From the UHGV virus genome UHGV-2132316: DNA of 34,539 nucleotides. One strand, 5' to 3'. The translations under genes were made by a program, and so were the position numbers. This stretch comes from a virus. Below are positions 8,338 through 31,612 of the stretch, piece by piece. Numbering within the stretch: position 1 is the stretch's first letter; each line of letters starts with the position of its first letter. The notes under the pieces are model-generated. The model ran no database searches and was not told where the DNA came from. It saw nothing but the letters and a program-made list of their open reading frames with translations.

Positions 8338-8913
8338 CTGACTCTTCTCTATTGTTCCGCTTGATTCTCCTGCGGGGTGGTAACGATAAATCGTCGATGT
8401 ACCAATGCCGTAAATTATTGCCAGTTGTTTTCTGTCGTGACCGTTTTTAATCAGCCTTGCTATTTGCTCATGCTGTTCTTTTGTCAGCTTCGGTCGACGT
8501 CCGCCTGTGCGCCCCCGTGCGCGCGCTGCCGCCAGTCCGGCCAGTGTACGTTCAACAATTAATTCACGTTCCATTTCAGCCAGGGCACCCATCACGTGGA
8601 AGAAAAAACGCCCCATTGGAGAAGATGTATCTATGCTGTCGGTCAGACTGCGAAAATTAATCCCTCGCTCCCGTAGTTCTCCGACGAGAGAAATCAGATG
8701 TTTCATGCTTCGCCCAAGGCGATCCAGTTTCCAGACAACCAGCGTGTCACCTTTTTGAAGCCGCTTTAAAGCGCGTTTTAATCCCGGTCGGTCTGTCTTT
8801 GTCCCGCTTAATTTATCTTCAAATATTTGTTCACATCCTGCACAAACAAGAGCGTTTCGTTGCAGGTCTGTATTCTGGTCATTTGTTGATACCCTTACAT
8901 AACCAATCAGCAC
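8326..8913 (-). CDS. Serine-recombinase DNA invertase of the Hin/Gin/Cin/Pin family; start at GTG 8913 (GGGAG RBS), track ORF starts at an upstream TTG
   Basis: LIGYVRVSTNDQNTDLQRNAL...GDTLVVWKLDRLGRSMKHL... near-identical in the catalytic domain to remembered Pin; C-terminal HTH region. Confidence 0.92.
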   Translation of the reverse strand: MLIGYVRVSTNDQNTDLQRNALVCAGCEQIFEDKLSGTKTDRPGLKRALKRLQKGDTLVVWKLDRLGRSMKHLISLVGELRERGINFRSLTDSIDTSSPMGRFFFHVMGALAEMERELIVERTLAGLAAARARGRTGGRRPKLTKEQHEQIARLIKNGHDRKQLAIIYGIGTSTIYRYHPAGESSGTIEKSQKTK

Positions 8914-8967
8914 ACTGAATCTCCCGTCCAAAAGCGCAAATCATGCCATGCAGGCCGGAAACGGCCA

Positions 8968-8993
8968 TTATCTAAAACCTCGGTTTACAGGAA
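8968..8993. other. gix/hix-like 26-bp recombination site (left): TTATCTAAAACC-TC-GGTTTACAGGAA
   Basis: Matches the Gin/Hin/Cin/Pin crossover-site consensus; contains the in-frame stop TAA (8973-8975) that closes the silent cassette frame on the outside. Confidence 0.8.
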
Positions 8994-9980: not shown

Positions 9981-9983
9981 TTT

Positions 9984-10511
9984 ATGCAGCATTTAAAAAA
10001 TATTAAGTCTGGAAATCCAAAAACAAAAGAACAATATCAGCTAACAAAGAATTTTGATGTTATCTGGTTATGGTCCGAAGACGGAAAAAACTGGTATGAG
10101 GAAGTGAAAAACTTTCAGCCAGACACAATAAAGATTGTTTACGATGCAAATAATATTATTGTCGCCATCACCAAAGATGCCTCCACGCTTAACCCTGAAG
10201 GTTATAGCGTCGTTGAGGTTCCTGATATTACAGCTAATCGTCGTGCTGATGATTCCGGTAAGTGGATGTTTAAGGACGGAGCTGTGGTTAAACGGATTTA
10301 TACGGCAGACGAGCAACAACAACAGGCCGAATCACAAAAGGCCGCGTTACTTTCCGAAGCAGAAAACGTTATTCAGCCACTGGAACGCGCTGTCAGGCTG
10401 AATATGGCGACGGATGAGGAACGCGCACGACTGGAGTCATGGGAACGCTATAGTGTTCTGGTCAGCCGTGTGGATACGGCAAATCCTGAATGGCCACAAA
10501 AGCCTGAATAA
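9984..10511 (+). CDS. Alternative tail-fibre assembly chaperone (Tfa, gpG/Mu U'-like), silent orientation
   Basis: 175 aa; N-terminus [24 protein letters not shown]... nearly identical to the active gpG N-terminus while the C-terminus differs, as expected for cognate chaperones. Confidence 0.85.
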
Positions 10512-10515
10512 AAAT

Positions 10516-10536
10516 TAAGGCCCGATAGCGGGCCTT
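10516..10536. terminator. Bidirectional terminator hairpin (aaggcccg-atag-cgggcctt) between the two convergent chaperone genes
   Basis: Perfect 8-bp stem read directly, flanked by A/T runs. Confidence 0.6.
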
Positions 10537-10539
10537 GTT

Positions 10540-11073
10540 TCATTCTGGTTGTTCTGGAAACGTTACTGGCAGGCTGGAGGTGTCTGTGGATTCGACCTTC
10601 TGCGCATAGAGCATCCACTCGGTTAATTTTTGTTTATTCTCGTCGGAAATGATACCCAGCCGTAGCTGTGAGTCCCATAGCTGGGTTTTATCCCTGACAA
10701 GTTGCAACAGGCTTTGCTTTTCATTCTCTGCCTGCTGCCTCTGTTCCTCCTCGGTATAAGTTCGCTTTATCACTACGCCATCTTTGAACATCCATTTACC
10801 CGAAATATCAGCCCGGCGATTTGCTGTAATATCAGGTAATTCAACGACGCTTGCGCCTTCCGGATTAATTGCTGAAACATCCTTTTCAATACAAATAATA
10901 ACGCCGTTATGGTCATAGACCATTTTCAAAGTGTCTGGCTGGAAATTCTTTTGTTCCTCATACCAGTTTTTTCCATCATCTGAATAAAGCCATTTGATGT
11001 TAAATTGCTTTGTTAGCTGGTATTGCTCTTTTGTTTTAGGGTTGCCAGCAGTAATATTTTTTAAGTGCATCAT
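10540..11073 (-). CDS. G: Tail-fibre assembly chaperone gpG (currently expressed orientation)
   Basis: 177 aa directly downstream of H; Tfa-family sequence. Confidence 0.85.
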   Translation of the reverse strand: MMHLKNITAGNPKTKEQYQLTKQFNIKWLYSDDGKNWYEEQKNFQPDTLKMVYDHNGVIICIEKDVSAINPEGASVVELPDITANRRADISGKWMFKDGVVIKRTYTEEEQRQQAENEKQSLLQLVRDKTQLWDSQLRLGIISDENKQKLTEWMLYAQKVESTDTSSLPVTFPEQPE

Positions 11074-11075
11074 AA

Positions 11076-13310
11076 TTAAATACTCCCCGCGTTATACCAC
11101 GTTCCATTAATGCAATACTGAATTGGCCTTGCCTGAGTTGTATCAATTAATTCATCACGGTTTCCGTTAACTGAACCAGTAACGACATAACCTGACCTGT
11201 CAGACCAGCCAGGACCATTCCATGTCTGAACAGATGACAGACCGCCAAGGCGAATACCTGTAATAAACCTTGAGTTACATTCTGCCTGCGTATATGCACC
11301 AACATCTCCCGCAGAGGGTTTGCGTGTTGTGGTGTAAAACTCTGACCAGTTAGCTTCAAAGCCATAACCATCACGCGCTGAACGATAAAAGATACCGCCA
11401 TTTCTGTAATTCACGCGGAACTGTACAGCAGGGCAACTCCCCGCATTCATATTAAAGTGGAGGATTAATGTCGATGCGCCACTGATATCTGCATCATAAA
11501 CGCCGCTATTCCAGTTCCAGCCAACAGCTTTATCATTTGCGACCCTGCGTCCTGTTTGCCCTAAAGCAAATGCAGGCTGCTGGTTTTTCGTGTTGTAGTC
11601 TCGTCGCCAGCCAGGAGCGTAAGCATCACCATGATTAATATAAGTGAATTGAGCGTTAGTGATTCCGCCACCGCTGGACGTGCTCGGCGTGGTAACGCGT
11701 ATGGTCATTGCGCCGCGGGTGCCAATAACTTCCACCACAGCACCTGCAAGACAAATATTTCCGCAACCTGTATCTGTAATGACCTTATTATTTGCATAAG
11801 CCCATGAGCCTTTGCACATCCAGTAAGGATGGTTAAATGCCCCCTGACTCTCCAGCCACGAAATGAATTGTGCGGTTGTCCAGACCTGACTATCGCCACC
11901 AATATTCAGCCATGCGCTATATGCGCGGCAGGCCCCAATATTTTTGGTGAAGGTATCTTTCCCCGGAATATCTGCGCCGTTCTGGTTTTTCTGTAATGCG
12001 CCAGAAGCCTGATTTACCGTTTCCTGTAAACCGAGGTATTCGATAACAGCGGCAACGGTCGATTTCGCAAGAATATCCCGCCCGACTTTTGTCAGGGTTG
12101 CCAGGCTGGCGACATCATTCCCCGTAAAATACGGAAACTTGTCTGCCGCAGTAGCAAGCCCGGCCAGCGCCGTCAGGGTGGCATCTTTCGGTTGCTTACC
12201 CGCAAGCGCTTTAGTCATGGTGGTCGCAAAATTCGGGTCGTTTCCCAGCGCCGCCGCTAACTCGTTCAGCGTATTCAGTGCGTCAGGTGACGAATCTACA
12301 AGGGCGGCAATCGCAGCCATAACGAAAGCCGTGCTTGCGATTTGGGTATTATTCGTTCCCTGTCGCGCAGTTGGCGTTGTTGGCGTTCCGGTCAACGCAG
12401 GACTGTTTAAGGGCGCTTTCTTGTTCGTTTCATCCATTACCGCCTTAACCGCTTTCGATGTCGCGGCCAGTGTTTCAGACGTGCTGTTGGTGGCACTACT
12501 GAGCTGGACTATCCCTTTTTGTGCCGTCGTGGCGTCCTGAGCGGTATATTTTGCGTTAGCAAGGTCATACGCGGCCTTTACTGCTTTCGGCGTTGCAGCC
12601 TGCGTTTCAGACGTGCTGTTGGTGGCGCTACTGAGCTGGACAAGGCCTTTTCGTGCCGTCGTGGCGTCCTGAGCGGTATATTTTCCGTTAGCTAGGTCAT
12701 ACGCGGCCTTAACCGCTTTCGGCGTTGCAGCCTGCGTTTCAGACACGCTGTTAGTGGCGCTACTGAGTTGAACAAAGCCTTTTGCGGTCAGCGAGGCGTC
12801 CGGGTGACGTCGTGACTGTTCATGCTCTTTCAGTTTGTCATCCACGTAATCCACTGTGGCCATCACCATGGTGTTATCCACGGTAAGCGCCACGGTGGCC
12901 GTGCTGGATACGGTCAGAATGGTGCGAAATGTTTGTGCACGTCCGGACCCTTCGGCAACGGTTGGTTTGTAACTTTCGGCAGTATTGCCCACCGCGATTA
13001 AATCGCCGTGCTCATCAAATACACCAATTTCCCGGATCCAGAATCCGCCCGTTTCAGGAGGAATAACCAGCTCCGCAATAATGCGGTTCTGATGTGTTGC
13101 GTCCAGGATGACGCGATTAACAGTGTGTCGCCACACCTCATGCACCAGACGGGTCTGCTTACTGTCTGGTGTGGGCAACGTGCCGCCACCGTCGCCCACG
13201 GCCATATGAGTCAGGCGGACAGGCTTACCATCTGGCGCGGCTGCCTGAGCTAATTTTTTGGCACCTGTATCGGTGATAACGGTTTTAAATTTTCGTGTTG
13301 TGGTACTCAT
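11076..13310 (-). CDS. H: Tail fibre protein gpH; N-terminal ~425 aa constant region, C-terminal ~320 aa exchangeable by inversion
   Basis: 744 aa; N-terminal half matches remembered P2 H (..RRHPDASLTAKGF.., LNSPALTGTPTTPTA..); gix site inside the gene. Confidence 0.92.
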   Translation of the reverse strand: MSTTTRKFKTVITDTGAKKLAQAAAPDGKPVRLTHMAVGDGGGTLPTPDSKQTRLVHEVWRHTVNRVILDATHQNRIIAELVIPPETGGFWIREIGVFDEHGDLIAVGNTAESYKPTVAEGSGRAQTFRTILTVSSTATVALTVDNTMVMATVDYVDDKLKEHEQSRRHPDASLTAKGFVQLSSATNSVSETQAATPKAVKAAYDLANGKYTAQDATTARKGLVQLSSATNSTSETQAATPKAVKAAYDLANAKYTAQDATTAQKGIVQLSSATNSTSETLAATSKAVKAVMDETNKKAPLNSPALTGTPTTPTARQGTNNTQIASTAFVMAAIAALVDSSPDALNTLNELAAALGNDPNFATTMTKALAGKQPKDATLTALAGLATAADKFPYFTGNDVASLATLTKVGRDILAKSTVAAVIEYLGLQETVNQASGALQKNQNGADIPGKDTFTKNIGACRAYSAWLNIGGDSQVWTTAQFISWLESQGAFNHPYWMCKGSWAYANNKVITDTGCGNICLAGAVVEVIGTRGAMTIRVTTPSTSSGGGITNAQFTYINHGDAYAPGWRRDYNTKNQQPAFALGQTGRRVANDKAVGWNWNSGVYDADISGASTLILHFNMNAGSCPAVQFRVNYRNGGIFYRSARDGYGFEANWSEFYTTTRKPSAGDVGAYTQAECNSRFITGIRLGGLSSVQTWNGPGWSDRSGYVVTGSVNGNRDELIDTTQARPIQYCINGTWYNAGSI
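12021..12046. other. gix/hix-like 26-bp recombination site (right), inverted copy inside gene H: TTCCTGTAAACC-GA-GGTATTCGATAA
   Basis: 24/26 identical to the reverse complement of the left site; central dinucleotides complementary (TC vs GA); encodes ...IEYLGLQE... in H. Confidence 0.8.
12430..12800 (-). repeat. Tandem 132-bp (44-codon) direct repeats, about 2.8 copies, inside H (peptide unit ...VQLSSATNSTSETQAATPKAVKAAYDLANxKYTAQDATTAxKG)
   Basis: Period measured between 'gtttcagac' occurrences at 12472, 12604 and 12736. Confidence 0.8.
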
Positions 13311-21721: not shown

Positions 21722-23473
21722 ATGATTCAGGACGCTTTTGTGCGCCAGCGTGCGCGGCAACTTTACTGGCAGGGTTATCCGCCCGCAGAAATATCACGTC
21801 TGATGGGAATAAACCCGAACACGATTTATGCGTGGAAAAAACGCGACCAGTGGGATGAAACGCCACCCGTGCAGCGTGTCACGCAGTCCATCGATGCGCG
21901 CCTCATCCAGCTTACTGAAAAACAGAATAAAACAGGTGGTGACTTTAAGGAAATAGACCTGCTGACCCGGCAGCTTAAAAAACTGCATGATGGCCAGCCG
22001 GATGCGACGGCCACAGGAAAGAAAGGCCGGGCGAAAAAACTTAAAAATCATTTCACGCCGGAGCAGATTGCCGCACTGCGGGAAAAAATCATCAGCAGGC
22101 TGGAGTGGCATCAGCGGGGCTGGTTTGACTCCCTGACCCTTTGCAGTGAAGCCGGGATACGTAACAGGATGATCCTGAAATCCCGACAGATTGGGGCGAC
22201 CTGGTATTTTGCACAGGAAGCACTGCTGATGGCGCTGCGTGACGATGTGGCACAACCTTACCAGCGTAACCAGATTTTTTTGTCTGCGTCGCGTCGTCAG
22301 GCGTTCCAGTTTAAAAGCATTATTCAGAAGGCCGCGGCTGAAGTTGATGTGGAGCTGAAAGGGGGCGATAAAATCATCCTCTCCAACGGCGCAGAACTGC
22401 ATTTTCTCGGTACTTCTGCTGCGACGGCACAGTCCTACACAGGCAATTTTTATTTTGATGAATTTTTCTGGGTCAGTCGCTTTGCTGAACTGCGCAAGGT
22501 GGCTGGCGCTATGGCAACCCTCAGCGGACTGCGGCGCACCTACTTCTCCACGCCATCAACCGAAACGCACGAGGCATACGTCTACTGGAACGGCGACCGC
22601 TGGAACGAGAAAAAGGCCGCGCATAAACGCCAGCGTTTTTCTGTGGACTGGAAAACGCTGCATAACGGGCTTATCTGCCCCGACCGGACGTGGCGGCAAA
22701 TTGTCACGCTGGAAGATGTGGTTAATCACGGCTGGAAACACACCGATATTGATGAAATTCGTGATGAAAACACCGAAGACGAGTTCCGCAATCTCTATAT
22801 GTGTGAGTTTGTCCGCGAAGGGGAATCGGCATTTAACCTGAATATCCTGATTGGCTGCGGCGTTGACGGATACGACGACTGGAAAGACTGGAAACCTTTT
22901 GCTCCCCGCCCGATGGGAAATCGTCCGGTATGGATTGGGTATGACGCAAACGGCAGCAGTGGCAACGGCGACAGCGGCGCTGTGTCCGTGGTGGTTCCTC
23001 CGGCTGTTCCTGGTGGCCGTTTTCGAACGGTGGAGACGCGACGCGTTCAGGGGCTGGAGTTTGAAGAACAGGCCAGAGTCATTGAAGAGTTCACGTGTCG
23101 CTACAACGTGGAACACATCGGCATTGATGTGACGGGCGGGAACGGGGAGGCTGTTTATCAGATAGTGAAACGGTTTTTCCCTGCTGCTATTCCGTACACC
23201 TTCACGCTGTCATCAAAACGGTCGCTGGTACTGAAAATGCTGCAAATAATGCGTGCCGGGCGGTGGGAATACGATCGCGCCGAACGCGAACTGGTCGCGG
23301 CCTTTAACGCCGTGCGTAAGGTGAAAACACCGGGCGGCTTTATCACTTACGAAACGGACCGCGCGAGGGGGATCAGCCACGGCGACCTTGCGTGGGCGAC
23401 CATGCTTGCTGTCATTAACGAACCGATTGGCGGCGAAGGAGAAAACGAGCGTTTCACGGTTATGGAGTTCTGA
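21722..23473 (+). CDS. P: Terminase large (ATPase) subunit gpP-like
   Basis: 583 aa; divergent from O as in P2. Confidence 0.92.
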   Translation: MIQDAFVRQRARQLYWQGYPPAEISRLMGINPNTIYAWKKRDQWDETPPVQRVTQSIDARLIQLTEKQNKTGGDFKEIDLLTRQLKKLHDGQPDATATGKKGRAKKLKNHFTPEQIAALREKIISRLEWHQRGWFDSLTLCSEAGIRNRMILKSRQIGATWYFAQEALLMALRDDVAQPYQRNQIFLSASRRQAFQFKSIIQKAAAEVDVELKGGDKIILSNGAELHFLGTSAATAQSYTGNFYFDEFFWVSRFAELRKVAGAMATLSGLRRTYFSTPSTETHEAYVYWNGDRWNEKKAAHKRQRFSVDWKTLHNGLICPDRTWRQIVTLEDVVNHGWKHTDIDEIRDENTEDEFRNLYMCEFVREGESAFNLNILIGCGVDGYDDWKDWKPFAPRPMGNRPVWIGYDANGSSGNGDSGAVSVVVPPAVPGGRFRTVETRRVQGLEFEEQARVIEEFTCRYNVEHIGIDVTGGNGEAVYQIVKRFFPAAIPYTFTLSSKRSLVLKMLQIMRAGRWEYDRAERELVAAFNAVRKVKTPGGFITYETDRARGISHGDLAWATMLAVINEPIGGEGENERFTVMEF

Positions 23474-24519
23474 TGAGCAGAAAAAATAAAAAAGTGCGCA
23501 TGAGTTCACGCATTGATCTCGCTGATGCGCTCAGGAAAGAATCATCGCTCAGTGCATTCACATTTGATGGTCCTTATCGCCTGACCGGGCATGACCTGCT
23601 GGACAATATGTACTGTGCTGATAACGGGCGGTGGTATGAAACCCCGGTGGACTGGTACGGTCTGGCAAGAGCTGCCCGGCAAACGTCCTGGCATCAGTCT
23701 GCGCTTTACTTTAAGCGCAATGTATTGCTCGGTTGCTATATTCCTCACCCGCTGCTTTCCCGGCAGGATTTCTCGGCGCTGGCGCTGGACTGGTTTGTGT
23801 TCGGTAACGCATTCCTTGAGCTTCGAAGCAATATGCTCGGTGAACCGCTTAAATTACGGCACGCCCTGGCGAAATACATGCGACGCGGAAGCGATCTTGA
23901 ATCATGGTGGTATGTGCAGGATGGCAAGGACGCGTTCCAGTTTCGCCCTGGCAAAGTGTGCCACCTGATGAATCCGGATATTAACCAGGAAATCTACGGC
24001 ATGCCGGAATATCTTGGCGCATTACTCTCGGCCAGCCTGTCTCATTCGGCGGACATGTTCAGAAAACTGTATTACGACAACGGATCCCACGCCGGGTGCA
24101 TCATCTACATCGGTGCAGCGCAGGTAAACCGCGAAAGCATGGACTCCCTGAAAGAAACGCTACAGGGGGCACGTGGTGGTGGTGCGTTTAAAAACGTGCT
24201 CATTCATGCGCCCAACGGGGGCAAAGAGGGGGTGCAAATTTTGCCGTTCCAGCAGATCACCGCAAAGGATGAGTTCATGAATGTTAAGGCGGCATCCCGT
24301 GATGATGTGCTGGCTGCGCACCGCGTTCCACCGCAACTGATGGGGGCAATGCCGGGCGAAAAAAGTGCGTTTGGTGATGTGGAGAAGGCCGCGCGGGTTT
24401 ACGCAATTAACGAGCTGATGCCCGTCATGGAGGCCATGAAGCACATCAATGACTGGCTTGGCGAAGAGGTGATCCGCTTTAACCCTTACGCACTGTTAGA
24501 CACCCAGCCCACATCCTGA
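23473..24519 (+). CDS. Q: Portal protein gpQ-like
   Basis: 348 aa; start overlaps the P stop (TGATGA); last gene before the cos region. Confidence 0.9.
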   Translation: MSRKNKKVRMSSRIDLADALRKESSLSAFTFDGPYRLTGHDLLDNMYCADNGRWYETPVDWYGLARAARQTSWHQSALYFKRNVLLGCYIPHPLLSRQDFSALALDWFVFGNAFLELRSNMLGEPLKLRHALAKYMRRGSDLESWWYVQDGKDAFQFRPGKVCHLMNPDINQEIYGMPEYLGALLSASLSHSADMFRKLYYDNGSHAGCIIYIGAAQVNRESMDSLKETLQGARGGGAFKNVLIHAPNGGKEGVQILPFQQITAKDEFMNVKAASRDDVLAAHRVPPQLMGAMPGEKSAFGDVEKAARVYAINELMPVMEAMKHINDWLGEEVIRFNPYALLDTQPTS

Positions 24520-24984
24520 CGCGCTTCGCTTGTCTGCTGCTTCGCCGGGGCATAAAAAATTTATGCCCCGACTCTCCAGCTCCTGTATCAGTCAGATAAT
24601 TTCACGACGCTTTCCTGCTGATTGCCATCATCGACAGTCAGACTCTTACGCAATCCCACCGCGTTGACTGCATGTTCTCGCCGTCTCAGTGCGATTTTGA
24701 CGGCCTTACCTTTCACCCCATCAAATCAAAAGCTCTCACGTCTTTTTCACGCTCAGCGTGAGAAATACAGCCATTCTGTTGTATCTCTGCGACATCGTTC
24801 AGGGAATGCTATTTACCCCCTGAAACGCGGGCTGTTCCCCCGTCACCTGCGCGCAGAAAAAACGCGTTTTTTTGTGCACGCACGGATCCCTGACGGATCC
24901 AGCCGCCACGCGGGCCGGAAGGGCAAAAAGTCGTTCAAAAAAATTGTGCAAATTTGTGCACTATTGTGCAGTGTGAAGAGCAAT
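24520..24984. other. Non-coding cos/packaging region between the portal gene and the cargo cassette; exact cohesive-end site not pinned down
   Basis: About 465 bp without a credible ORF, rich in palindromes and phased repeats; position corresponds to cos in the P2 map. Confidence 0.45.
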
Positions 24985-25012
24985 AAAAAAGGGCTTTATT
25001 AGCCCTTAATTT
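24985..25012. terminator. Rho-independent terminator (stem aagggc/gccctt) with an A-run on the plus strand, i.e. U-run for the leftward cargo operon
   Basis: Hairpin directly after the stop of the 25013..25651 gene. Confidence 0.7.
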
Positions 25013-25651
25013 TTACCTTCCCCAGTCCCGATCAGGAAGTCTATCTTTGAAGGCAAGGTAATCGTAAAACTCACGAGTATGGGAAAAAATACATTCGCAC
25101 ATTGCAGCGCCAGCGTTTGAAAGAGCCAATTTCAACATGCCGTCAGGTTTAGGATTGCTCACCAAATTTTCATAAACTTGAGCCTGATCTAAACCGTGGA
25201 CACATAACAAAAGCGAAGACTCAAAGGTAACAACCGCATCCAGTAAACGCTGATGAATCACGGAAAGGGTCGGTTGGTTTGCAACAATTGCAGTCAAACA
25301 GCGGCGATCACCAGTCATAAAAATGGCTTCTGGGTTCTCTATGCACGAGGCAAGCAATAGCTGTTCGCCTACATCAATTCCGGGCACACTCCCCAAAAGC
25401 TCAATAAGCTGGGAGTCCTGAACTTCCGGGATATCCTGTACAGATTCAATGAAGGCTCCCACTTGCTCGTAAACAACTTGGCTACCACACTTCCTGATTG
25501 CTTTATCAGGATTTTTCGGCAGAAGCTGAAAACGAGCAGCAGGGTTAATGAAGATCTGTTCGGGGGGTTGATTAAAAACCACTGGCAGTTGTGATAACAG
25601 ATTGCACTGGGCCAGCTTCAAAATGACATCATTATCAGAAAGAACAATCAC
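25013..25651 (-). CDS. Hypothetical PIN-like (putative nuclease) protein, second gene of the cargo cassette
   Basis: 212 aa; GTG start with GGGGA RBS; N-terminus IVLSDNDVILKL and ...AIFMTGDRRCL... resemble PIN-domain acidic motifs; assignment by eye only. Confidence 0.55.
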   Translation of the reverse strand: MIVLSDNDVILKLAQCNLLSQLPVVFNQPPEQIFINPAARFQLLPKNPDKAIRKCGSQVVYEQVGAFIESVQDIPEVQDSQLIELLGSVPGIDVGEQLLLASCIENPEAIFMTGDRRCLTAIVANQPTLSVIHQRLLDAVVTFESSLLLCVHGLDQAQVYENLVSNPKPDGMLKLALSNAGAAMCECIFSHTREFYDYLAFKDRLPDRDWGR

Positions 25652-25654
25652 TTA

Positions 25655-26653
25655 TTATTCCCCGATTAGATTTTCTAAAACCTTAAGATCATCTTCGTGG
25701 ATATTTTCTAAATCCATCCCGCTTTTCATCATGGCCCTCACAAAATCCTGATCTGAGTCTTCACCAGCGCAGAGTGATTTAACAGCGTTAACAGCAACGC
25801 CCCAGCAGTTCTGCGCGAAACCATAATTTAAAGCGATGTGAGTTGGGTCAATGTGATTATCACTTCCAAACTTTTGAGCTGCGCGAGCCAAGCCTGGCCC
25901 GTTCAACCTGCCAGCGGTAGGAACGATACGTAAAGACTTCTGCCCCGAAATGACCTGGAAGGCGAATTCGTTAGCTTCTTTCTCTACGTTGTCCGTCGAA
26001 GCATTCTCAATTTTTGCGTCAATATGGCACTGCCCGTTTTCTGCGTTCAGATGCCCTCTGGCGATATGGCCTAACTCATGCGCGAGATCAAACAGCATAT
26101 AGCCGTATTTCTGAGGCTGAGTAAGAACAATCACCGGGCGCCCGTGACTCATTAGCGCCAGTCCGGCCATTTTTTTTGCAGCTTGTGGGAAGCATTTTAG
26201 ATAAACAACAGGAATGCCAATCGAATGACAGTATGTTACCAGGCTATCTAGCGACACCCATGATTCCTTAGTAAGGATCTGGGTTCTTATCGCCAAAGGA
26301 TCCAGCACTGCACTAGCATCGTAAGGGACTTTGAAATTAGACGCGACAATACCGGCCGCAGTATAGGCAACAGCAGTAGCGATATCTAAATCGTTCTCGG
26401 CTACATTTTGGCGATGTTTATATTTATGGTTTCCACCAAAATTAAAGCATACCCCTTCGCTACCATCTTTCAGGCTATCCGGGAGAATGCTAAACATACG
26501 CGCAAGGTGCAGGCACGCATACTGGCGCCCTGATGGGGTGTCAGCAAGCTTCTCATCCCACCAATCAGGCAACAACCTGCGGATGTAAGAGAGATTAAAC
26601 CCGGCCCGGCCGAATTTAGAATATATCTGACTCATCTGATTATGGTTCGTCAT
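25655..26653 (-). CDS. ImmA/IrrE-family (DUF955/COG2856) HEXXH metallopeptidase-domain protein with extra N- and C-terminal regions
   Basis: 332 aa; LAHELGHIARGH followed by EKEANEFAFQ is the ImmA/IrrE signature; strong AGGAGG RBS. Confidence 0.75.
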   Translation of the reverse strand: MTNHNQMSQIYSKFGRAGFNLSYIRRLLPDWWDEKLADTPSGRQYACLHLARMFSILPDSLKDGSEGVCFNFGGNHKYKHRQNVAENDLDIATAVAYTAAGIVASNFKVPYDASAVLDPLAIRTQILTKESWVSLDSLVTYCHSIGIPVVYLKCFPQAAKKMAGLALMSHGRPVIVLTQPQKYGYMLFDLAHELGHIARGHLNAENGQCHIDAKIENASTDNVEKEANEFAFQVISGQKSLRIVPTAGRLNGPGLARAAQKFGSDNHIDPTHIALNYGFAQNCWGVAVNAVKSLCAGEDSDQDFVRAMMKSGMDLENIHEDDLKVLENLIGE

Positions 26654-26703
26654 AAGAGCCTCCTAACTGCGTGTGTAAGCGAAATGCCATTTATTATTAG
26701 CTT

Positions 26704-26758
26704 AGTTATGACACAAAAGCGCGCACACTATAAGCATAAAACGGCGAAAGTCATAACT
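26704..26758. promoter_or_regulatory. Inverted repeat AGTTATGAC ... GTCATAACT in the A-rich spacer upstream of the cargo operon
   Basis: 9-bp arms about 37 bp apart, read directly; function inferred. Confidence 0.3.
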
Positions 26759-26811
26759 ATTTCGGTTGTGTGGAAAATGGGTAATTTCTTCTTAGAGCAG
26801 CTTATATCGGC

Positions 26812-29199
26812 TTAGTTCCGCGAAAATGCCGCTTTCATCCTATTCACAAGATCGCTTGTTTTTTGCTTCGCCGCCATCACTTGCGACGGCAGCCTCTCCA
26901 GCCCCGACGCGGCCCGGTTGCGCGATACCAGCCGCCCGTCCTGCACGGTCATAACAAGATCGCCGCACGCCACTGACGCACCGGCCATCATCGATCTGAC
27001 CATTCCGGCGCTGGCATCAATCCCACGTAGCGCCAGCAGTTCACTGATCTGCTGCTCTTTCACGGATAACCCGTCCCCGTCTTTCCGTTCCGGTGGCCGT
27101 TTTTTACGCTTACTGCGCACATCGTCACTAAGCCGCTGCGCCAGTTCTCGCTTTTCCTGCCGGGAAAGCGCATCAAAATTCACCGTCACGCCCTCAGCTG
27201 GTGCAGTCATTTCTGACTGCCCTTTAGCTTCGCTGGCGGCATGTTCAACACCGTCAGCACCTGCCGCGGGATCCCGCGTACAGTTATTGACAGAACTCCG
27301 AGGGGCGGCGCTGCCGCCTGAAAAACCAACGTCAACGGCCACACCGTCAGCGCTCTGGCGCTTCGGCACGATTTTGTATTGAGTGGTGCGGGTGAAGATC
27401 AAAGAGTCATTGCCCGTGATCGGGCAGTAAATACCAGTGATTCGCTGGACGTTATCGCCGTAGGCGTTGCCATTTTCAGTGATTTCATAGTTCAGACGGA
27501 TGCGCAGTTTATCGCGCTCAACCAACGGGCCACCCTGGGCTAATACGTAGTTATCCCATTCACCACCGTTAGCAGCCTGCCGGGCGGTTTCCAGTTCAGG
27601 GTGTAACACCAGTTCGCGATCGCCCAAGCGGCGAAGTTCGCGATATACCGTGACCGGCGCACCGCCGATCTGCTGAAACTGGCGAATAGCCCAGCGCGAT
27701 GCCCACGCGCTAACACGGAGTGACATTTCTTTCAGGTCTTCCCCGGTTTCGTCGTCCTTCTCACCATCCAGCGCGAAGCCGTCGATATTCTTCGAAATGT
27801 ATTTCGCTATGTAGCCGGTTGCGCTGCCGTGGGCATCGTCGATCGGCACAACCTGAAAGCGGTTTTCCTGCGCTCCCGGTTCGTTGCCGTCTTCTTTCAG
27901 GGCATATTTACGGAAGATTTCGCGCGCCTGCTCGACGCATTCCGGGCGCATAAAAAGAAGTAAATGCCAGTGTGGCGTTGCATCGTGGTGCGGTTCGACC
28001 ACGCGGAAACCAAAGACGCGGATCCCTTTTCTCTTCCACGCTGCGCGGGTTCTCGCCCAGACTTTGCAAAGATATTGCTGCGTCTCGCGCGGCGACGCGC
28101 CACAGTATTTATTATTGCGGCGCCCGTTATGCTGCATGGAGTGGTAACGGGAAGGTGCTGTCAGCGTGTAGAAGTCACCGGCCAGCCCTTCCAGCTTCGC
28201 CAGATCTTCAAATCCGCGCATTCTCGTCATGAGTTCGCGGCGACGGTTGGCCGGATTGGCAACACTACCGGCGACTTTATCGATCAGTGAAATGCGCTCG
28301 CCCGTGTCCTGGTCTTCCAGCTCCATAGCCTTAAGGTATTCACGGTTAGCCTTTTTCTGGGCCAGCCATTCCGTAAGGCACGGGGCGCTACTGTATGGGG
28401 AAGATTTTTTCTGGACGTATCCCGCCGCGATCATCAAGTGCTCACGCCATCGGGCATGGATACGGCGCAGGCGGTTTAACCACCATTGCGGTGACTCAAG
28501 ACGGAGAACCGCGCGTAACGCGTCCTCCGCTTCAAGTTCTTCATTGCAATACGCTGTCCAACCTGGGATCGGCGTTTTTAGATGCACCGCCAGCGACGCA
28601 ATACGGCCATAGCCAGAAAGCGCCGCGAACTCAGGATCGCCGGTGCGCGCCAACTGGTAATCGGACTCGCGTATAAACTCGCTCGTAAAGATATCGGCAA
28701 GCGTATAAGCCAGTCTTTTTAACTCTTTTTTCCCTGCCCAAAGCATACGGAAAAGCTGATCGCGGATTGGCAGCAGAATGCCAGGCATCACAGTGTCAGG
28801 CTGGTAAACACTGTTCACGCTATCAATACGTGTTAATACGTGGCGCTCAAAGGTATTAACCAGCCAGTGATCTGCCGCTTTGCGGTCTTTCGCGTCCAGT
28901 GCATCCAGCTTCGCGGCAAAGTGGCGGCGGATATACTGCGGAAGGGAAGCCAGACGGCGACGCAGCAGCTTGCTGCGCTCCGACTTTTCGTCCTCCGCTA
29001 CCAGTTCACTGAACGCAATATGCTTGCGGGTGCCGTCCGGCGTGAGATAGTCGAAACCATCCAGCCCCGTCGCTACATCAACGCCAATCGGCTGGTATGG
29101 TTTGTTCCCGCCATAAGCGTAAGGGGTAGCATTATCAGTGCTACCCGAATACGGTGGAGGTGGAGAAGGGGCGCGACGGCCACGGGTTGCCGTAGTCAT
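26812..29199 (-). CDS. A: Replication initiation endonuclease gpA-like (rolling-circle Rep)
   Basis: 795 aa; YTLTAPSRYH and GYIAKYISKNIDG motifs characteristic of P2 A-type initiators. Confidence 0.9.
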   Translation of the reverse strand: MTTATRGRRAPSPPPPYSGSTDNATPYAYGGNKPYQPIGVDVATGLDGFDYLTPDGTRKHIAFSELVAEDEKSERSKLLRRRLASLPQYIRRHFAAKLDALDAKDRKAADHWLVNTFERHVLTRIDSVNSVYQPDTVMPGILLPIRDQLFRMLWAGKKELKRLAYTLADIFTSEFIRESDYQLARTGDPEFAALSGYGRIASLAVHLKTPIPGWTAYCNEELEAEDALRAVLRLESPQWWLNRLRRIHARWREHLMIAAGYVQKKSSPYSSAPCLTEWLAQKKANREYLKAMELEDQDTGERISLIDKVAGSVANPANRRRELMTRMRGFEDLAKLEGLAGDFYTLTAPSRYHSMQHNGRRNNKYCGASPRETQQYLCKVWARTRAAWKRKGIRVFGFRVVEPHHDATPHWHLLLFMRPECVEQAREIFRKYALKEDGNEPGAQENRFQVVPIDDAHGSATGYIAKYISKNIDGFALDGEKDDETGEDLKEMSLRVSAWASRWAIRQFQQIGGAPVTVYRELRRLGDRELVLHPELETARQAANGGEWDNYVLAQGGPLVERDKLRIRLNYEITENGNAYGDNVQRITGIYCPITGNDSLIFTRTTQYKIVPKRQSADGVAVDVGFSGGSAAPRSSVNNCTRDPAAGADGVEHAASEAKGQSEMTAPAEGVTVNFDALSRQEKRELAQRLSDDVRSKRKKRPPERKDGDGLSVKEQQISELLALRGIDASAGMVRSMMAGASVACGDLVMTVQDGRLVSRNRAASGLERLPSQVMAAKQKTSDLVNRMKAAFSRN

Positions 29200-30110
29200 T
29201 GCGCGATCTCCATGTAGGCTTTTAAGAAAGTAGCGGCTGCATAGATATTTACGGCGTTTCCGCTGGCGCGTAGTTTTCCCACTCTGGAGGGAACCCCATC
29301 AACCAGAGGCTTAAGGCCGGGTTTAACTGGCCTCCACTTTCCATCTCTGCAAAAGAGCCAGTCAGCAGATCCCCAGAATCCGTTAACCGGGCCGGGCCTG
29401 CTATCTGCGCTGTCACATCCAGCGTATCCGTTGACAGCTTCCCGTGCCGCATCCTTCCCCCCTGATACCCGCCCTTTCCATCCCTCGCCGTAGGGGTGGG
29501 CCAGCCCGCAAGACAAGCAAAGTCCTGTAAGTTCGACTGCCGACCAGCCAGCTTCTTGGCGATCACCTTCTCGGCATCCTGATAAGCGTTCTTCGTATTG
29601 CTCGCGGTTGGAGTCGGCCAGCCAGTAAGTACGCTCCCGGATGTGCGGCGCACCGACGCCCGCAGACGGAAACGCCGACGCCCCGAAGGCATAGCCCAAA
29701 CTTTCCATGTCTGTTTGTACAAGGTCGATCCAGACTTCTGCATCTTTGCTTGAAGACTGTTCGCCAAATATAACGACAGGGCGTTGCTGGCCTGCAAGCC
29801 AATGAACGGCGGGCCATAGGTGCCGCTCATCATCAAATTGTTTTCCTTCGCCTGCCTGGCTGAAAGGTTGGCATGGGCAACTTGCTGTCCATACTGGGCG
29901 GTCATCCGGCCATCCTGCAACGCGCAAAGCCCGGGGCCAGCCTCCAAAACCTGCAAACAGGTGGACTTGAGAGAATCCTTTAATGTCATTTGGGGTTACA
30001 TCCTCAACGGAACGAGTATCAACAACGCCGGAAGCGATAAGCCCGGCATCAATGAGGTTGCGCAGGTATTGCGCGGCGAAGGGGTCGATTTCGTTGTAGT
30101 AGGCGGTCAC
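29196..30110 (-). CDS. DNA cytosine-5 methyltransferase-like protein (compact, atypical)
   Basis: LFAGFGGWPRAL (motif I-like), CPCQPFSQAG (motif IV), LGY...GVGAPHIRERTYW (motif VII/VIII), SGNAVNIYAAATFL (motif X). Confidence 0.7.
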   Translation of the reverse strand: MTAYYNEIDPFAAQYLRNLIDAGLIASGVVDTRSVEDVTPNDIKGFSQVHLFAGFGGWPRALRVAGWPDDRPVWTASCPCQPFSQAGEGKQFDDERHLWPAVHWLAGQQRPVVIFGEQSSSKDAEVWIDLVQTDMESLGYAFGASAFPSAGVGAPHIRERTYWLADSNREQYEERLSGCREGDRQEAGWSAVELTGLCLSCGLAHPYGEGWKGRVSGGKDAAREAVNGYAGCDSADSRPGPVNGFWGSADWLFCRDGKWRPVKPGLKPLVDGVPSRVGKLRASGNAVNIYAAATFLKAYMEIAQ

Positions 30111-30427
30111 TGCTGCCCCTCCGCCTTTCGGCTACACCGATCGATTACTTGGTACTGAATTTCTAAACCCAGCTTTTCAGCAAGCGCGTGCTCTGCCTTA
30201 GCTCCCGCAGACTGCTGCCAGCCATCCAGCAAGAAGATCCCGTCAGCACAACGCAACATGGCGAAGCAAATATCCATGTATTCCGCCTGCTCTAATCCGT
30301 CCGGCAAAATCGCCGGATTAAGGGCAACGTTTCCGCGTCGCACTACGTGCCCAGCTGCACGGTTAAAAGCCTGCCGATTGAATCCAGGCAAACCGCTCAT
30401 CGGGCCAGCGATATAGATTTTTGCCAT
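30107..30427 (-). CDS. Hypothetical protein, DUF4406 / nucleoside 2-deoxyribosyltransferase-like
   Basis: 106 aa; MAKIYIAGPMSG N-terminus and GW..S.GA..E..LA..LG.. pattern; start and stop overlap neighbours. Confidence 0.5.
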   Translation of the reverse strand: MAKIYIAGPMSGLPGFNRQAFNRAAGHVVRRGNVALNPAILPDGLEQAEYMDICFAMLRCADGIFLLDGWQQSAGAKAEHALAEKLGLEIQYQVIDRCSRKAEGQQ

Positions 30428-31398
30428 TAAAAAGCCTCCAGATCGCCAAACGTGCCCGCCGCAACCATCGCGTTGTAAGTCGCATCACCCATCACGGCGC
30501 CACAATCAGGGCAACCGCCGCCGTAACGCCCGCAGCAGTCGCAGACAGGCAGCACGCCGATCACTTCTTTGGCCTTCTGTCGGTTGTTTTTGTCAGTGCT
30601 GACGGAACGTTGCACGCTGATTTTGTGCATCTTGAAGGGCTGATAAATCGCGCGGGTGGCTTCGGTGTCGCTGTTGGAAATGACGACCTTCACGCCATGC
30701 TTACGGTTAACTTCCAGCAGTGCCTGGACTAACTGGCGGTGGTTGTCTTCCGTGAATGGTTCGGTGTGGTATTGGGTAAAATCGGCTGTTTTGCTTTCAG
30801 GCAGGTAAGGCGGATCGCAGTAAACGAGAACATCGCCACCCGTGACGACCTGTAGAGAACGCTGGAACGGCGCGCACAGAAATATTGCCTTTGTATCGTT
30901 GGCCTTTTCGGCAAACAGGCGGATTTCATTTTCAGGAAAGTAGACGCTCTTATACTTGCCAAACGGCACGTTAAAGCCAGTCTTCCGGCTGTATCGGCAT
31001 AAGCCGTTATAACCGTGGCGATTCAGATACAGGAATTGAGCAGCGCGCATAATGCACGCCATTTCAGCGCCATAACGCAACCCACCGCTTTTGACCGTAC
31101 CCACCTGCTTATTGAACGCGGCGCGGACTTCGTTGTATCCCTGCGGGCTGTTCTTACTGTTGAACAGTTCACGGGCCGCATCGATCACTAAGTCCGGGTA
31201 ACGGGTGACTTCCCGATACAGGTTAATAAGATCCGGGTTGATATCAGCCAGCACATAGCGGCGGTATTCAGTCGCCAGAAATACCGATGCGCCGCCTACG
31301 AACGGTTCGATCAGGCAGTCGGCTTTAGGAAGATGCGGCAGCAGGTCAGGGAGGACACGGGTTTTTCCCCCTGCCCATTTGATGAACGGGCGGATCAT
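30427..31398 (-). CDS. Dam-like N6-adenine DNA methyltransferase with a Cys-rich C-terminal extension
   Basis: PFIKWAGGK and DPPY motifs; high similarity to remembered E. coli Dam; C-terminal CDCCGRYGGGCPDCG; start at ATG 31398, track ORF is longer. Confidence 0.9.
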   Translation of the reverse strand: MIRPFIKWAGGKTRVLPDLLPHLPKADCLIEPFVGGASVFLATEYRRYVLADINPDLINLYREVTRYPDLVIDAARELFNSKNSPQGYNEVRAAFNKQVGTVKSGGLRYGAEMACIMRAAQFLYLNRHGYNGLCRYSRKTGFNVPFGKYKSVYFPENEIRLFAEKANDTKAIFLCAPFQRSLQVVTGGDVLVYCDPPYLPESKTADFTQYHTEPFTEDNHRQLVQALLEVNRKHGVKVVISNSDTEATRAIYQPFKMHKISVQRSVSTDKNNRQKAKEVIGVLPVCDCCGRYGGGCPDCGAVMGDATYNAMVAAGTFGDLEAF

Positions 31399-31399
31399 T

Positions 31400-31612
31400 T
31401 TACAGGACTCCGTAATGGGAAGCTGGAATAGAAGGGCGCTGCAATTCTTCAATGCAGTGCTGGCGCAGATTGCTTATAAAATTGGTTGCTACAGACCCAC
31501 TGGCAGAAAGGGTTAACTCACCATCACGGCGGGTTTTAATGGTTAACCCTTCATTTTCGATAGCAGGTAAAAGAACATGCAAAATGAAACTATATTGTTC
31601 ACGTCTGGTCAT
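31400..31612 (-). CDS. Hypothetical early protein (70 aa)
   Basis: ATG with GGAGG RBS; tightly packed in the early operon; no recognisable motif. Confidence 0.5.
   Translation of the reverse strand: MTRREQYSFILHVLLPAIENEGLTIKTRRDGELTLSASGSVATNFISNLRQHCIEELQRPSIPASHYGVL

What the first reader, a model, noticed from the sequence alone, without database searches (positions are those of the whole stretch)
25013..26811. Two-gene cargo cassette (ImmA/IrrE-like peptidase plus PIN-like protein) in the old/tin variable locus: candidate uncharacterised anti-phage or toxin-antitoxin-like module
Two co-directional genes separated by 3 nt sit between replication gene A and the cos/portal region, the position where P2 carries its non-essential exclusion genes old and tin. 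They are flanked by a spacer with an inverted repeat and a strong terminator, and look visibly more AT-rich than neighbouring phage genes. The first product (332 aa) has the ImmA/IrrE HEXXH signature (LAHELGHIARGH ... EKEANEFAFQ) with about 190 aa of unassigned N-terminal sequence; the second (212 aa) has PIN-like features (IVLSDNDVIL..., ...FMTGDRR...). I do not recognise this pair as a named defence system, so it is a candidate new module in which a peptidase would control or cooperate with a nuclease effector.
Basis: partly seen in the sequence, partly recalled or inferred. Interest (0 to 1): 0.8.

Follow-up and report, generated by a model that had tools for sequence, protein, structure and literature searches.

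The report
Peptidase–PIN nuclease toxin–antitoxin-like prophage cargo
A P2-like prophage carries, in its known defence-gene hotspot, an uncharacterised two-gene unit (a zinc peptidase with a degenerate DNA-binding head, then a PIN-type nuclease) that looks like a toxin–antitoxin-style candidate anti-phage system of an already predicted kind, not a new type.

Summary
Two intact co-directional genes (26653..25655, 332 aa; 25651..25013, 212 aa; minus strand) lie between replication gene A and cos/portal. They have a promoter-like site, Shine-Dalgarno sequence and terminator, and 45-46% GC against 55-57% nearby.

Gene 1 is an M78 (ImmA/IrrE) peptidase with an invariant HExxH. Its "unassigned" N-terminus is collinear with the Xre HTH of canonical Xre-COG2856 fusions. 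Gene 2 has a distant PIN (VapC-like) fold with invariant acidic residues, and no Pfam, NCBIfam or PADLOC model matches it.

The pair is strictly conserved across several bacterial phyla. Every intact PIN gene with readable upstream sequence has the peptidase gene upstream; orphans are intact peptidases or truncated PINs. That asymmetry fits PIN as toxin and peptidase as antitoxin.

In E. coli the cassette is rare hotspot cargo: 13 of 5,426 complete genomes. Rousset 2022 Table S5 already lists it as "Peptidase_M78 + hypothetical", and I found no sign it was tested.

It belongs to the long-predicted Xre-COG2856 + PIN class, to which the validated RosmerTA systems are related. Verdict: a new, uncharacterised member of a known kind. 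Toxicity, neutralisation and defence are inferred, not shown. An analogous ImmA + DUF4411 pair gave no defence in one published screen.

The parts
24980..26811 (-). Extent of the variable cargo between the conserved cos-side backbone and the stop codon of gene A
   Evidence: Cassette-less P2-like prophages match the window only up to about 24978, and cassette-bearing genomes with a different cos flank match from about 24938/24980 to 26811. GC is 0.45-0.46.
26727..26754 (-). Promoter-like site: -35 ATGACT, 16-nt spacer, -10 TATAGT
   Evidence: Found by the consensus scan. The TATAGT hexamer is invariant in 8 aligned cassette alleles. This is a consensus match only, and the number of such sites in the region equals the chance expectation.
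26703..26759 (.). Perfect 10-nt inverted repeat TAGTTATGAC / GTCATAACTA (arms 26703-26712 and 26750-26759) bracketing the promoter-like site; candidate operator
   Evidence: The ~66-bp block containing it is about 94% identical between alleles whose proteins share only 54% identity and whose synonymous sites are saturated. The block is absent from cassette-less prophages.
26659..26664 (-). Shine-Dalgarno sequence AGGAGG, 5 nt upstream of the gene 1 ATG
   Evidence: Read directly from the sequence. GGAGGCTCT is invariant in the alignment.
25655..26653 (-). Gene 1: 332-aa Xre-like / M78 (ImmA/IrrE, COG2856) zinc metallopeptidase; proposed antitoxin, regulator or sensor
26468..26638 (-). Gene 1 residues ~6-62: five-helix N-terminal domain, a degenerate Xre-type HTH with an invariant LPxWW(D) motif
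25925..26254 (-). Gene 1 residues ~134-243: M78 catalytic core. HELGH lies at 26066-26080; H201 and E224 are also conserved.
   Evidence: H192, E193, H196 and H201 are invariant in 59 homologues and in 37 cross-phylum pairs; E224 is invariant in the 59.
25658..25906 (-). Gene 1 residues ~250-332: C-terminal helical domain with no match found; possible toxin-binding or sensor domain (inference)
   Evidence: The AF2 model shows helices 252-329 with pLDDT above 90. The hhalign match to canonical fusions ends before this region.
25013..25651 (-). Gene 2: 212-aa PIN-like (VapC-fold) protein; proposed nuclease toxin or effector. The PIN core is roughly residues 1-150 (25202-25651), followed by a ~60-aa helical C-terminal extension.
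24989..25007 (-). Intrinsic-terminator-like stem-loop (AAGGGCT-aataa-AGCCCTT) followed by TTTTTATT, 6 nt after the gene 2 stop; reads as a terminator on both strands

Best explanation
The cassette is a self-contained, horizontally mobile two-gene module of toxin-antitoxin type, carried as cargo in the A/cos defence hotspot of a P2-like prophage. Gene 2 encodes a PIN-fold metal-dependent nuclease that is the growth-arresting effector, most likely an RNase as in VapC. Gene 1 encodes a fusion of a degenerate Xre-like domain, a catalytically competent M78 zinc peptidase and a private C-terminal domain, and this protein keeps the nuclease harmless. Proposed mechanism (inferred): both genes are transcribed from the cassette's own promoter. 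Translation is coupled, with only a 3-nt gap and a conserved weak GTG start for the toxin, so the peptidase protein is made in excess. The peptidase protein neutralises the PIN protein, either by binding it or by continuously cleaving it. It probably also autoregulates the promoter through the conserved inverted repeat. Phage infection or another stress would switch, inactivate or destroy the peptidase protein and free the nuclease. The resulting growth arrest would abort the infection, giving superinfection exclusion that benefits the prophage. It therefore works like RosmerTA (RmrA peptidase antitoxin plus toxin) and like the predicted Xre-COG2856 + PIN systems. Shown here: gene structure, folds, conserved catalytic residues, strict pairing, purifying selection and hotspot location. 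Inferred: toxicity, neutralisation, autoregulation, trigger and anti-phage effect.
For: Gene 1 is an M78 peptidase with invariant HExxH...H and is collinear with canonical Xre-M78 fusions. Gene 2 has a PIN fold with an invariant acidic set.

Pairing from the peptidase side: 35 of 40 full-length homologues, from Pseudomonadota, Planctomycetota, Cyanobacteriota, Armatimonadota, Bacteroidota and Myxococcota, have the PIN homologue immediately downstream. Pairing from the PIN side: 103 of 111 loci are pairs. The other eight are N-terminally truncated PIN fragments (5) or contig ends (3).

Intact orphans are always the peptidase gene (L017, L043; L030 keeps a PIN remnant). That is the asymmetry expected if PIN is toxic on its own.

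The two proteins co-diverge (Mantel r 0.90, 0 of 2000 permutations reach it). Both are under purifying selection, with dN/dS 0.03-0.10.

The cassette has its own promoter-like site, Shine-Dalgarno sequence and terminator. The regulatory block with its 10-nt inverted repeat is ~94% conserved while synonymous sites are saturated.

The location is the P2 hotspot shown experimentally to hold many defence systems (PMC9122126). The same position is used in E. coli, Citrobacter, Dickeya and Enterobacter P2-like elements. The cassette is rare and always intact in E. coli, 13 of 5,426 genomes.

Precedent: RmrA Zn-peptidase antitoxins cannot be deleted and RosmerTA defends. Associations between COG2856 or ImmA and PIN were noted earlier.
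Against: There are no experimental data for this family. PADLOC RmrA models match only the M78 core, weakly (E 5e-6 to 4e-3), and no RmrT or other defence model matches gene 2.

The most similar architecture tested so far, E. coli ImmA/IrrE + DUF4411 ('PIN2'), was scored non-defensive in the DefensePredictor screen.

In PD-lambda-2 the Xre-peptidase protein itself was the toxic component, so the polarity could be reversed here.

The N-terminal domain has lost every sequence signature of an HTH, so DNA binding is uncertain. The inverted-repeat arms lie 37 nt apart, which is unusual for the operator of a single dimer.

Confidence: 0.6

Rival explanations
1. It is a plain addiction or stabilisation module. 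The pair is a toxin-antitoxin unit that persists because losing it kills the cell or stabilises the prophage, and it has no role against other phages.
For: All the TA-like evidence applies equally: the pairing asymmetry, coupling and co-divergence. The pair also sits alone among housekeeping genes in some genomes. An analogous ImmA + DUF4411 pair showed no defence.
Against: In Enterobacterales, divergent alleles (54-100% identity) sit repeatedly at exactly the P2 hotspot, where turnover of defence genes is the rule. A Pseudomonas copy lies next to an AbiEi-type gene. A peptidase with invariant catalytic residues is more machinery than neutralisation alone needs.
Confidence: 0.2
2. The polarity is reversed or the action is cooperative. 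The peptidase protein is the toxic or active effector, for example by cleaving a host or phage protein as the Lit protease and PD-lambda-2B do, and the PIN-like protein restrains or assists it.
For: PD-lambda-2B, an Xre-M78 protein, is toxic on its own. It gives the best PADLOC hit to gene 1, E 9e-10. Some gene 1 homologues carry Peptidase_U49 (PF10463) hits in precomputed Pfam. The peptidase catalytic residues are invariant.
Against: Intact orphan peptidase genes exist without a PIN partner (L017, L043), whereas lone PIN genes are only truncated fragments. That is the opposite of what a toxic peptidase would predict. The invariant PIN acidic residues point to an active nuclease rather than a mere inhibitor.
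Confidence: 0.08
3. It is a prophage regulatory switch. The ImmA-like peptidase acts as an anti-repressor that cleaves the prophage's own repressor, as ImmA/ImmR and IrrE/DdrO do, to control induction, and the PIN protein is accessory.
For: The M78 family includes anti-repressors of mobile elements. The structural neighbours CapP and IrrE cleave XRE repressors.
Against: No XRE substrate gene lies next to the cassette. Only about 1% of prophages with this cos region carry it, so it cannot be core regulation. The same pair occurs in non-phage chromosomal settings and in phyla without P2-like phages. The obligate partner is a nuclease, not a repressor.
Confidence: 0.04
4. It is a counter-defence or inter-phage weapon. 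The peptidase or nuclease would disable a host or rival-element defence or regulator, to the benefit of the P2-like phage during its own infection.
For: Phage variable regions also carry anti-defence genes (PMC9122126 introduction).
Against: The pair is widespread as a chromosomal module in Cyanobacteriota, Planctomycetota and other phyla outside phages. Its own promoter and terminator fit lysogenic moron expression. The TA-like asymmetry is not explained by this reading.
Confidence: 0.04

Closest known systems
RosmerTA (RmrA Zn-peptidase antitoxin + RmrT toxin; Millman 2022; NetFlax node D25, Ernits 2023)
   Same: A two-gene unit in which an M78/ImmA-type peptidase protein, usually with an N-terminal HTH, is paired with a toxin. 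It is found on prophages and mobile elements. NetFlax explicitly notes ImmA-type antitoxins associated with PIN-like toxins.
   Different: PADLOC RmrA models match gene 1 only locally and weakly, and no RmrT model matches gene 2. The characterised RmrT toxins are of unknown function or depolarise membranes, whereas this partner is a PIN nuclease. The HTH here is degenerate, carries a family-specific LPxWW(D) motif, and is joined by a private C-terminal domain. RosmerTA partners swap and gene order varies (58% toxin first), whereas this subfamily shows one fixed partner and one fixed order in about 140 loci.
Predicted Xre-COG2856 (DUF955) + PIN toxin-antitoxin systems (Makarova 2009; Matelska 2017: DUF4411, COG2405, PIN_14, PIN_20, PIN_26)
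   Same: An HTH-M78 fusion gene sits upstream of a PIN-like gene with a conserved acidic active site, and such pairs are common in prophages.
   Different: Gene 2 is not DUF4411 or any other Pfam PIN family; 55 members scanned at E<=10 give no hit. It may correspond to the unpublished-model cluster PIN_14, which I could not test. The class has never been explained mechanistically.
VapBC type II toxin-antitoxin systems
   Same: The toxin has a PIN fold with Asp/Glu metal ligands. The antitoxin gene comes first with a tiny intergenic gap, and the promoter carries an inverted repeat.
   Different: The 'antitoxin' is a 332-aa enzyme rather than a small RHH, AbrB or Phd DNA-binding protein. The PIN protein is about 70 aa longer than VapC because of an insertion and a C-terminal helical extension. 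There is no sequence-level similarity.
Protease/repressor pairs ImmA/ImmR, IrrE/DdrO and CapP/CapH
   Same: They share the M78 fold and catalytic motif, and CapP and IrrE are the best structural matches to gene 1. They work by signal-activated cleavage of a partner.
   Different: No separate XRE repressor is encoded beside the peptidase gene. The HTH-like domain is fused to the peptidase, and the conserved partner is a nuclease.
PD-lambda-2 (Vassallo 2022)
   Same: It contains an Xre-M78 fusion protein that gives the best PADLOC hit to gene 1 (E 9e-10), and it is a TA-like abortive defence from the E. coli accessory genome.
   Different: It has three genes (a HigB-like protein, the Xre-peptidase and a third protein resembling a P4 antitoxin). 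The peptidase protein is the toxic part, and there is no PIN component.
P2 old and tin (the classical occupants of this locus)
   Same: Same genomic position, and both are non-essential lysogen-expressed exclusion genes.
   Different: There is no homology, since no PADLOC hit appears other than M78-domain matches.

Membership tests
RosmerTA | RmrA: a Zn-peptidase (Peptidase_M78) antitoxin protein, commonly with an N-terminal HTH | tested here: inconclusive
   The domain architecture is met: Pfam PF06114 at 32.2 bits against a cut-off of 22 and an HTH-like N-terminus by hhalign. The twelve PADLOC RmrA models, however, match only residues ~134-241, at E 4.6e-6 to 3.7e-3.
RosmerTA | An adjacent RmrT toxin recognised by a RosmerTA toxin model | tested here: not met
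   Gene 2 has no PADLOC hit at E<=1.
RosmerTA | The toxin is toxic, the antitoxin neutralises it and cannot be deleted, and the system protects against phage | not testable with these tools
   Only indirect support: intact PIN genes never lack the peptidase gene, while orphan peptidase genes exist.
Xre-COG2856 + PIN predicted TA class | A COG2856/M78 domain with a conserved HEXXH | tested here: met
Xre-COG2856 + PIN predicted TA class | An Xre-type HTH fused to, or encoded next to, the peptidase | tested here: inconclusive
Xre-COG2856 + PIN predicted TA class | A PIN-like protein with conserved acidic residues in the same operon | tested here: met
DUF4411 (PF14367) PIN-like family | A match to the Pfam model | tested here: not met
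   None of 55 family members hits it at E<=10, and 10 distant representatives have no Pfam hit.
VapBC | A PIN-domain toxin of the PF01850 type plus a small DNA-binding antitoxin (RHH, AbrB, Phd or MerR) | tested here: not met
   The fold is PIN-like, but there is no sequence match to PIN families. The upstream partner is a 332-aa peptidase.
ImmA/ImmR - IrrE/DdrO - CapP/CapH protease-repressor modules | A separate XRE-family repressor substrate encoded beside the M78 protease | tested here: not met
   Only gene A lies upstream and the PIN gene downstream. The same two-gene layout occurs in about 140 loci. One distant Pseudomonas plasmid copy does have an extra 131-aa 'DNA-binding protein' gene upstream.
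PD-lambda-2 | Three components: a HigB-like A, an Xre-peptidase B and a C protein resembling a P4 antitoxin | tested here: not met
   Only the B model matches, locally at E 9e-10. No A or C homologue is present in the cassette.
Core P2 genes (replication accessory) | Presence in most P2-like genomes | tested here: not met
   13 of 5,426 E. coli genomes carry the cassette, against 1,156 with the adjacent cos region. It is absent from 50,697 phage records by tblastn.

The most novel reading that the evidence does not exclude
The peptidase is not a passive antitoxin but a protease-based infection sensor. Its degenerate HTH (invariant LPxWW(D) motif) or its private C-terminal domain would recognise a phage protein or nucleic acid, and the M78 site would then cut the PIN protein (for example its conserved C-terminal extension) or cut itself. 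That cleavage would convert a latent nuclease into an active one. This would be a proteolytically licensed nuclease immune switch, and a mechanism for the whole unexplained class of M78 'antitoxins'. It would also fit the reported ClpX/ClpP dependence of RosmerTA toxins.
Probability: 0.15. Interest if true: 0.75.

Novelty: new member of a known kind. Interest (0 to 1): 0.45.

Why it matters
The PIN-like partner belongs to a large family that no Pfam, NCBIfam or PADLOC model matched here: 1,552 clusters at 50% identity across many phyla. It is locked to one peptidase partner. Together they form a clean, compact model, in an E. coli prophage, for a question open since 2009: why M78 "antitoxins" keep an intact protease site, and how they control their toxins. 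If the cassette protects against phage, it would add a defence system to the roughly 19% of P2-like prophages that currently show no recognisable defence genes. It would also justify new detection models. If it is only an addiction module, it is an ordinary addition to the TA catalogue.

Tried and rejected
- Sequence searches for gene 2 found nothing: Pfam, NCBIfam and PADLOC, 55 members against Pfam at E<=10 and an A1 profile against PDB sequences. The PIN assignment therefore rests on fold and motif only. DUF4411 membership is rejected.
- Sequence searches for an HTH in the gene 1 N-terminus (A3 profile against PDB, and Pfam at E<=10) found nothing. Only the profile-profile and fold comparisons support an HTH origin.
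- The afdb50 fold library was unavailable, so I obtained no nearest annotated AlphaFold neighbours.
- tblastn of gene 2 found no hit in the isolated-phage collection. It found three records in the plasmid collection, and one of them (pENTAS02) is really a P2-like phage genome.
- Literature: the Zn-peptidase TA of E. coli E101 (Rousset 2021) is a different system, with the toxin gene upstream of the antidote gene. 'Peptidase + TM' (pFR104) in Rousset 2022 Table S2 is a different 160-aa peptidase pair. The domain-centric screen (PMC13069673) and the 2026 P2/P4 hotspot paper do not mention M78 or PIN.
- I looked for alternative partners downstream of peptidase homologues, which would indicate partner swapping. 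None were found; the exceptions are PIN loss or contig ends.
- I rejected the idea that the conserved promoter block is phage backbone, because it is absent from cassette-less prophages.
Full report
**What is there**

The window is a P2-like prophage, identical over this region to E. coli 81009 (NZ_CP021179). Two ORFs lie on the minus strand between the replication endonuclease gene A (29199..26812) and the cos/portal side (portal 23473..24519, plus strand). Gene 1 is 26653..25655 (332 aa, ATG start). Gene 2 is 25651..25013 (212 aa, GTG start). A single extra TAA triplet separates them.

The unit has its own apparent expression signals:
- a promoter-like site, ATGACT-16-TATAGT, at 26754..26727
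- an AGGAGG Shine-Dalgarno sequence at 26664..26659
- a stem-loop plus T-run terminator at 25007..24989, 6 nt after the gene 2 stop

A perfect 10-nt inverted repeat (26703-26712 / 26750-26759) brackets the promoter-like site. GC is 0.45-0.46 in the cassette and 0.55-0.57 in the flanking phage genes.

**It is cargo, not core**

The cassette DNA occurs in 13 of 5,426 complete E. coli genomes. In each it is full-length, single-copy and chromosomal. The adjacent cos segment occurs in 1,156 genomes. Sequenced phage isolates match only the cos segment, and tblastn of gene 2 finds nothing in 50,697 phage records.

The same two genes occupy the same A/portal position in other P2-like elements:
- E. 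coli MS 57-2
- Enterobacter soli pENTAS02, deposited as a plasmid but in fact a 32.6-kb P2-like genome
- Citrobacter, carrying alleles only 54% identical in protein
- Dickeya
- about 29 IMG/VR viral contigs, mostly 30-35 kb

This is the hotspot that Rousset et al. 2022 showed to hold many anti-phage systems (PMC9122126). Their Table S5 already lists "Peptidase_M78 + hypothetical, WP_052929074 + WP_052929073", which are the RefSeq proteins of this window. The parts of their table of evaluated systems that I read (Table S2, parts 3-4) do not include the pair. A word search of the whole table finds only one peptidase entry, 'Peptidase + TM', and that is a different 160-aa protein.

**Gene 1**

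Pfam gives Peptidase_M78 (PF06114) over residues 146-233, at 32.2 bits against a cut-off of 22. PADLOC gives only local M78-core matches: PD-Lambda-2_B at 9e-10, CapP at 1.4e-7 and RmrA models at 5e-6 or weaker.

The N-terminal 112 residues hit no HTH family or solved structure by sequence. To test them another way, I built an alignment of nine canonical fusions recovered in the genome scan. All nine carry HTH_3 and Peptidase_M78 by Pfam. hhalign aligns gene 1 residues 17-240 collinearly with template residues 31-234, at 99% probability and E 6.7e-18. The aligned stretch begins inside the template HTH and runs through the linker, including its FRAxxR / KFKHR motif.

So the "unassigned" N-terminus is a degenerate Xre-type domain, and gene 1 has the Xre-COG2856 architecture. 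It also has a private helical C-terminal domain (residues ~250-332) that matched nothing.

**Gene 2**

No Pfam, NCBIfam or PADLOC model matches it. The same holds for 55 family members scanned at E<=10, so it is not DUF4411. A family profile finds no solved relative by sequence.

The conserved residues sit where PIN active-site acids are expected (this placement rests on general knowledge of PIN domains):
- D6-N7-D8 after strand 1
- G95-E96 at the start of a helix
- T113-G114-D115 after strand 3
- E144 after strand 4

D6, D8 and D115 are conserved in 37 of 37 non-redundant pairs from several phyla, and E96 and E144 in 36 of 37. The protein has an insertion and a ~60-aa helical C-terminal extension compared with VapC.

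The family is large. It has 1,552 clusters at 50% identity with E<=1e-3 and 884 with E<=1e-10. Ten sampled distant members have no Pfam hit.

**The two genes are one unit**

Starting from the peptidase, a scan of one genome per species returned 40 loci with a full-length homologue. They come from Pseudomonadota, Planctomycetota, Cyanobacteriota, Armatimonadota, Bacteroidota and Myxococcota. In 35 of them the PIN homologue lies immediately downstream on the same strand. The exceptions are two contig ends, one locus with a PIN remnant and two orphan peptidases.

Starting from the PIN protein, I scored 111 metagenomic and viral loci. Of these, 100 scored as pairs, and 3 more are pairs that my gap filter missed. 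The remaining eight are five N-terminally truncated PIN fragments that lack D6 and D8, and three contig ends.

No intact PIN gene was seen without the peptidase gene, yet intact peptidase genes occur without PIN. That asymmetry is expected if PIN is toxic and the peptidase protein is its antidote.

Further support for a single functional unit:
- Pairwise identities of the two proteins are tightly correlated (Mantel r 0.90; 0 of 2000 permutations reach it).
- dN/dS is 0.03-0.10 for both genes in unsaturated comparisons.
- The GTG start of the PIN gene is conserved across divergent alleles.
- The ~66-bp promoter and inverted-repeat block is about 94% identical between alleles whose synonymous sites are saturated (pS about 0.8), and it is absent from cassette-less prophages. 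It is therefore a constrained, cassette-specific regulatory element.
- Outside Enterobacterales the pair sits in non-phage contexts: among housekeeping genes in a metagenomic genome, and near an AbiEi-type gene in Pseudomonas sp. ML96.

**How it most likely works**

The best-supported reading is a toxin-antitoxin-type module, with confidence 0.6. The PIN nuclease is the growth-arresting effector. The Xre-like/M78 protein neutralises it and probably autoregulates the operon through the inverted repeat. Infection or stress removes that control and aborts the infection. The prophage carries the module as an exclusion or defence moron.

Gene structure, folds, conserved catalytic residues, strict pairing, selection and location are shown by the analyses above. 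Toxicity, neutralisation, DNA binding, the trigger and protection are inferred.

The invariant protease site suggests that proteolysis is part of the mechanism, whether self-cleavage, cleavage of PIN or cleavage of a phage or host protein. Reports that RosmerTA toxins make ClpX or ClpP essential fit a proteolytic control step.

Rival explanations:
- a pure addiction module with no defence role (0.2)
- reversed polarity, with a toxic peptidase as in PD-lambda-2B (0.08), which the orphan asymmetry argues against
- a prophage anti-repressor switch (0.04), which rarity, the non-phage contexts and the lack of a repressor partner argue against
- counter-defence (0.04)

**Comparison with known systems**

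The architecture was predicted as a TA class by Makarova 2009 (COG2856 fused to an HTH and linked to PIN and RelE toxins). Matelska 2017 extended it to DUF4411, COG2405, PIN_14, PIN_20 and PIN_26 paired with HTH-DUF955. Its validated relative is RosmerTA.

Membership in RosmerTA as currently modelled is not met for the toxin and is inconclusive for the antitoxin. Membership in VapBC, DUF4411, ImmA/ImmR-type modules and PD-lambda-2 fails on defining features.

One caution: the closest tested analogue, E. coli ImmA/IrrE + DUF4411 ('PIN2'), was scored non-defensive in the DefensePredictor screen.

**Verdict**

This is a real, intact, selected and mobile two-gene module in a known defence hotspot. 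I class it as a new, uncharacterised member of a known kind, not a new kind. Interest is moderate at 0.45. The mechanism of M78 "antitoxins" is still open and this pair is a tidy E. coli model for it, but a specialist would not be surprised by its existence, and it is already catalogued in a supplementary table.

Noticed in passing
window 8326-13310: A low-GC segment (0.42-0.45) looks like an invertible tail-fibre host-range switch. It holds a serine invertase (Resolvase + HTH_7, 8326-8931, -), an alternative tail-fibre C-terminal segment (9018-9980, +), two tail-fibre assembly genes in opposite orientations (9984-10511 + and 10540-11073 -) and the 744-aa tail-fibre gene (11076-13310, -).
   Followed up: partly
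window 29196-31452: A second variable region lies upstream of gene A. It has a C5 cytosine methyltransferase (29196-30110, -) and a Dam-type D12 methyltransferase ORF (30427-31452, -; 341 aa with a TTG start). RefSeq marks the latter as a truncated pseudogene. Relatives carry PAPS-reductase-like, TerB, DUF3927 or other genes at this position.
   Followed up: partly
window 26649-26655: A third copy of the inverted-repeat core (TTATGAC on the coding strand) overlaps the gene 1 start codon. It could be a further operator half-site or a chance match.
   Followed up: no
L064 5591-5986 (Pseudomonas koreensis plasmid p1): In a distant copy of the pair (34% identity), an extra 131-aa gene annotated 'DNA-binding protein' overlaps the start of the peptidase gene. 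This branch may therefore keep a separate third component. The gene has no PADLOC hit.
   Followed up: partly
L003 3754-5778 and L064 2732-4761: The two Pseudomonas loci have similarly sized and spaced genes upstream of the pair. In L003 these are a BpsA_C-like methyltransferase, a 191-aa protein and an AAA_18/VakA-like P-loop protein. In L064 they are annotated as a putative methyltransferase and two hypotheticals. I did not compare the sequences. L003 also has an AbiEi-type gene nearby. This may be a small defence or TA island.
   Followed up: partly
L065 and L067 6095-6793 (Citrobacter P2-like prophages): Some hotspots carry an additional 232-aa gene between gene A and the cassette. It matches Type II methyltransferase models (PADLOC MTase_II, E 1e-26), so hotspot cargo can be stacked.
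   Followed up: partly
L111, L112, L117, L149, L165; L030 7012-7284: These loci hold N-terminally truncated or internally deleted PIN remnants. The five truncated ones have no adjacent peptidase hit, while L030 keeps an intact peptidase gene beside its PIN remnant. They appear to be decayed copies of the module.
   Followed up: partly
NC_015969.1 (L063): The Enterobacter soli 'plasmid' pENTAS02 (32,574 bp, circular) encodes P2-type portal, terminase, capsid and replication genes. It appears to be an episomal or mis-binned P2-like phage genome carrying this cassette.
   Followed up: no
window 24520-24978: The ~460-bp non-coding segment next to the portal gene (the cos region) is conserved at 90-99% identity in 1,156 of 5,426 complete E. 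coli genomes. It marks the sharp backbone/cargo boundary at about 24979.
   Followed up: partly
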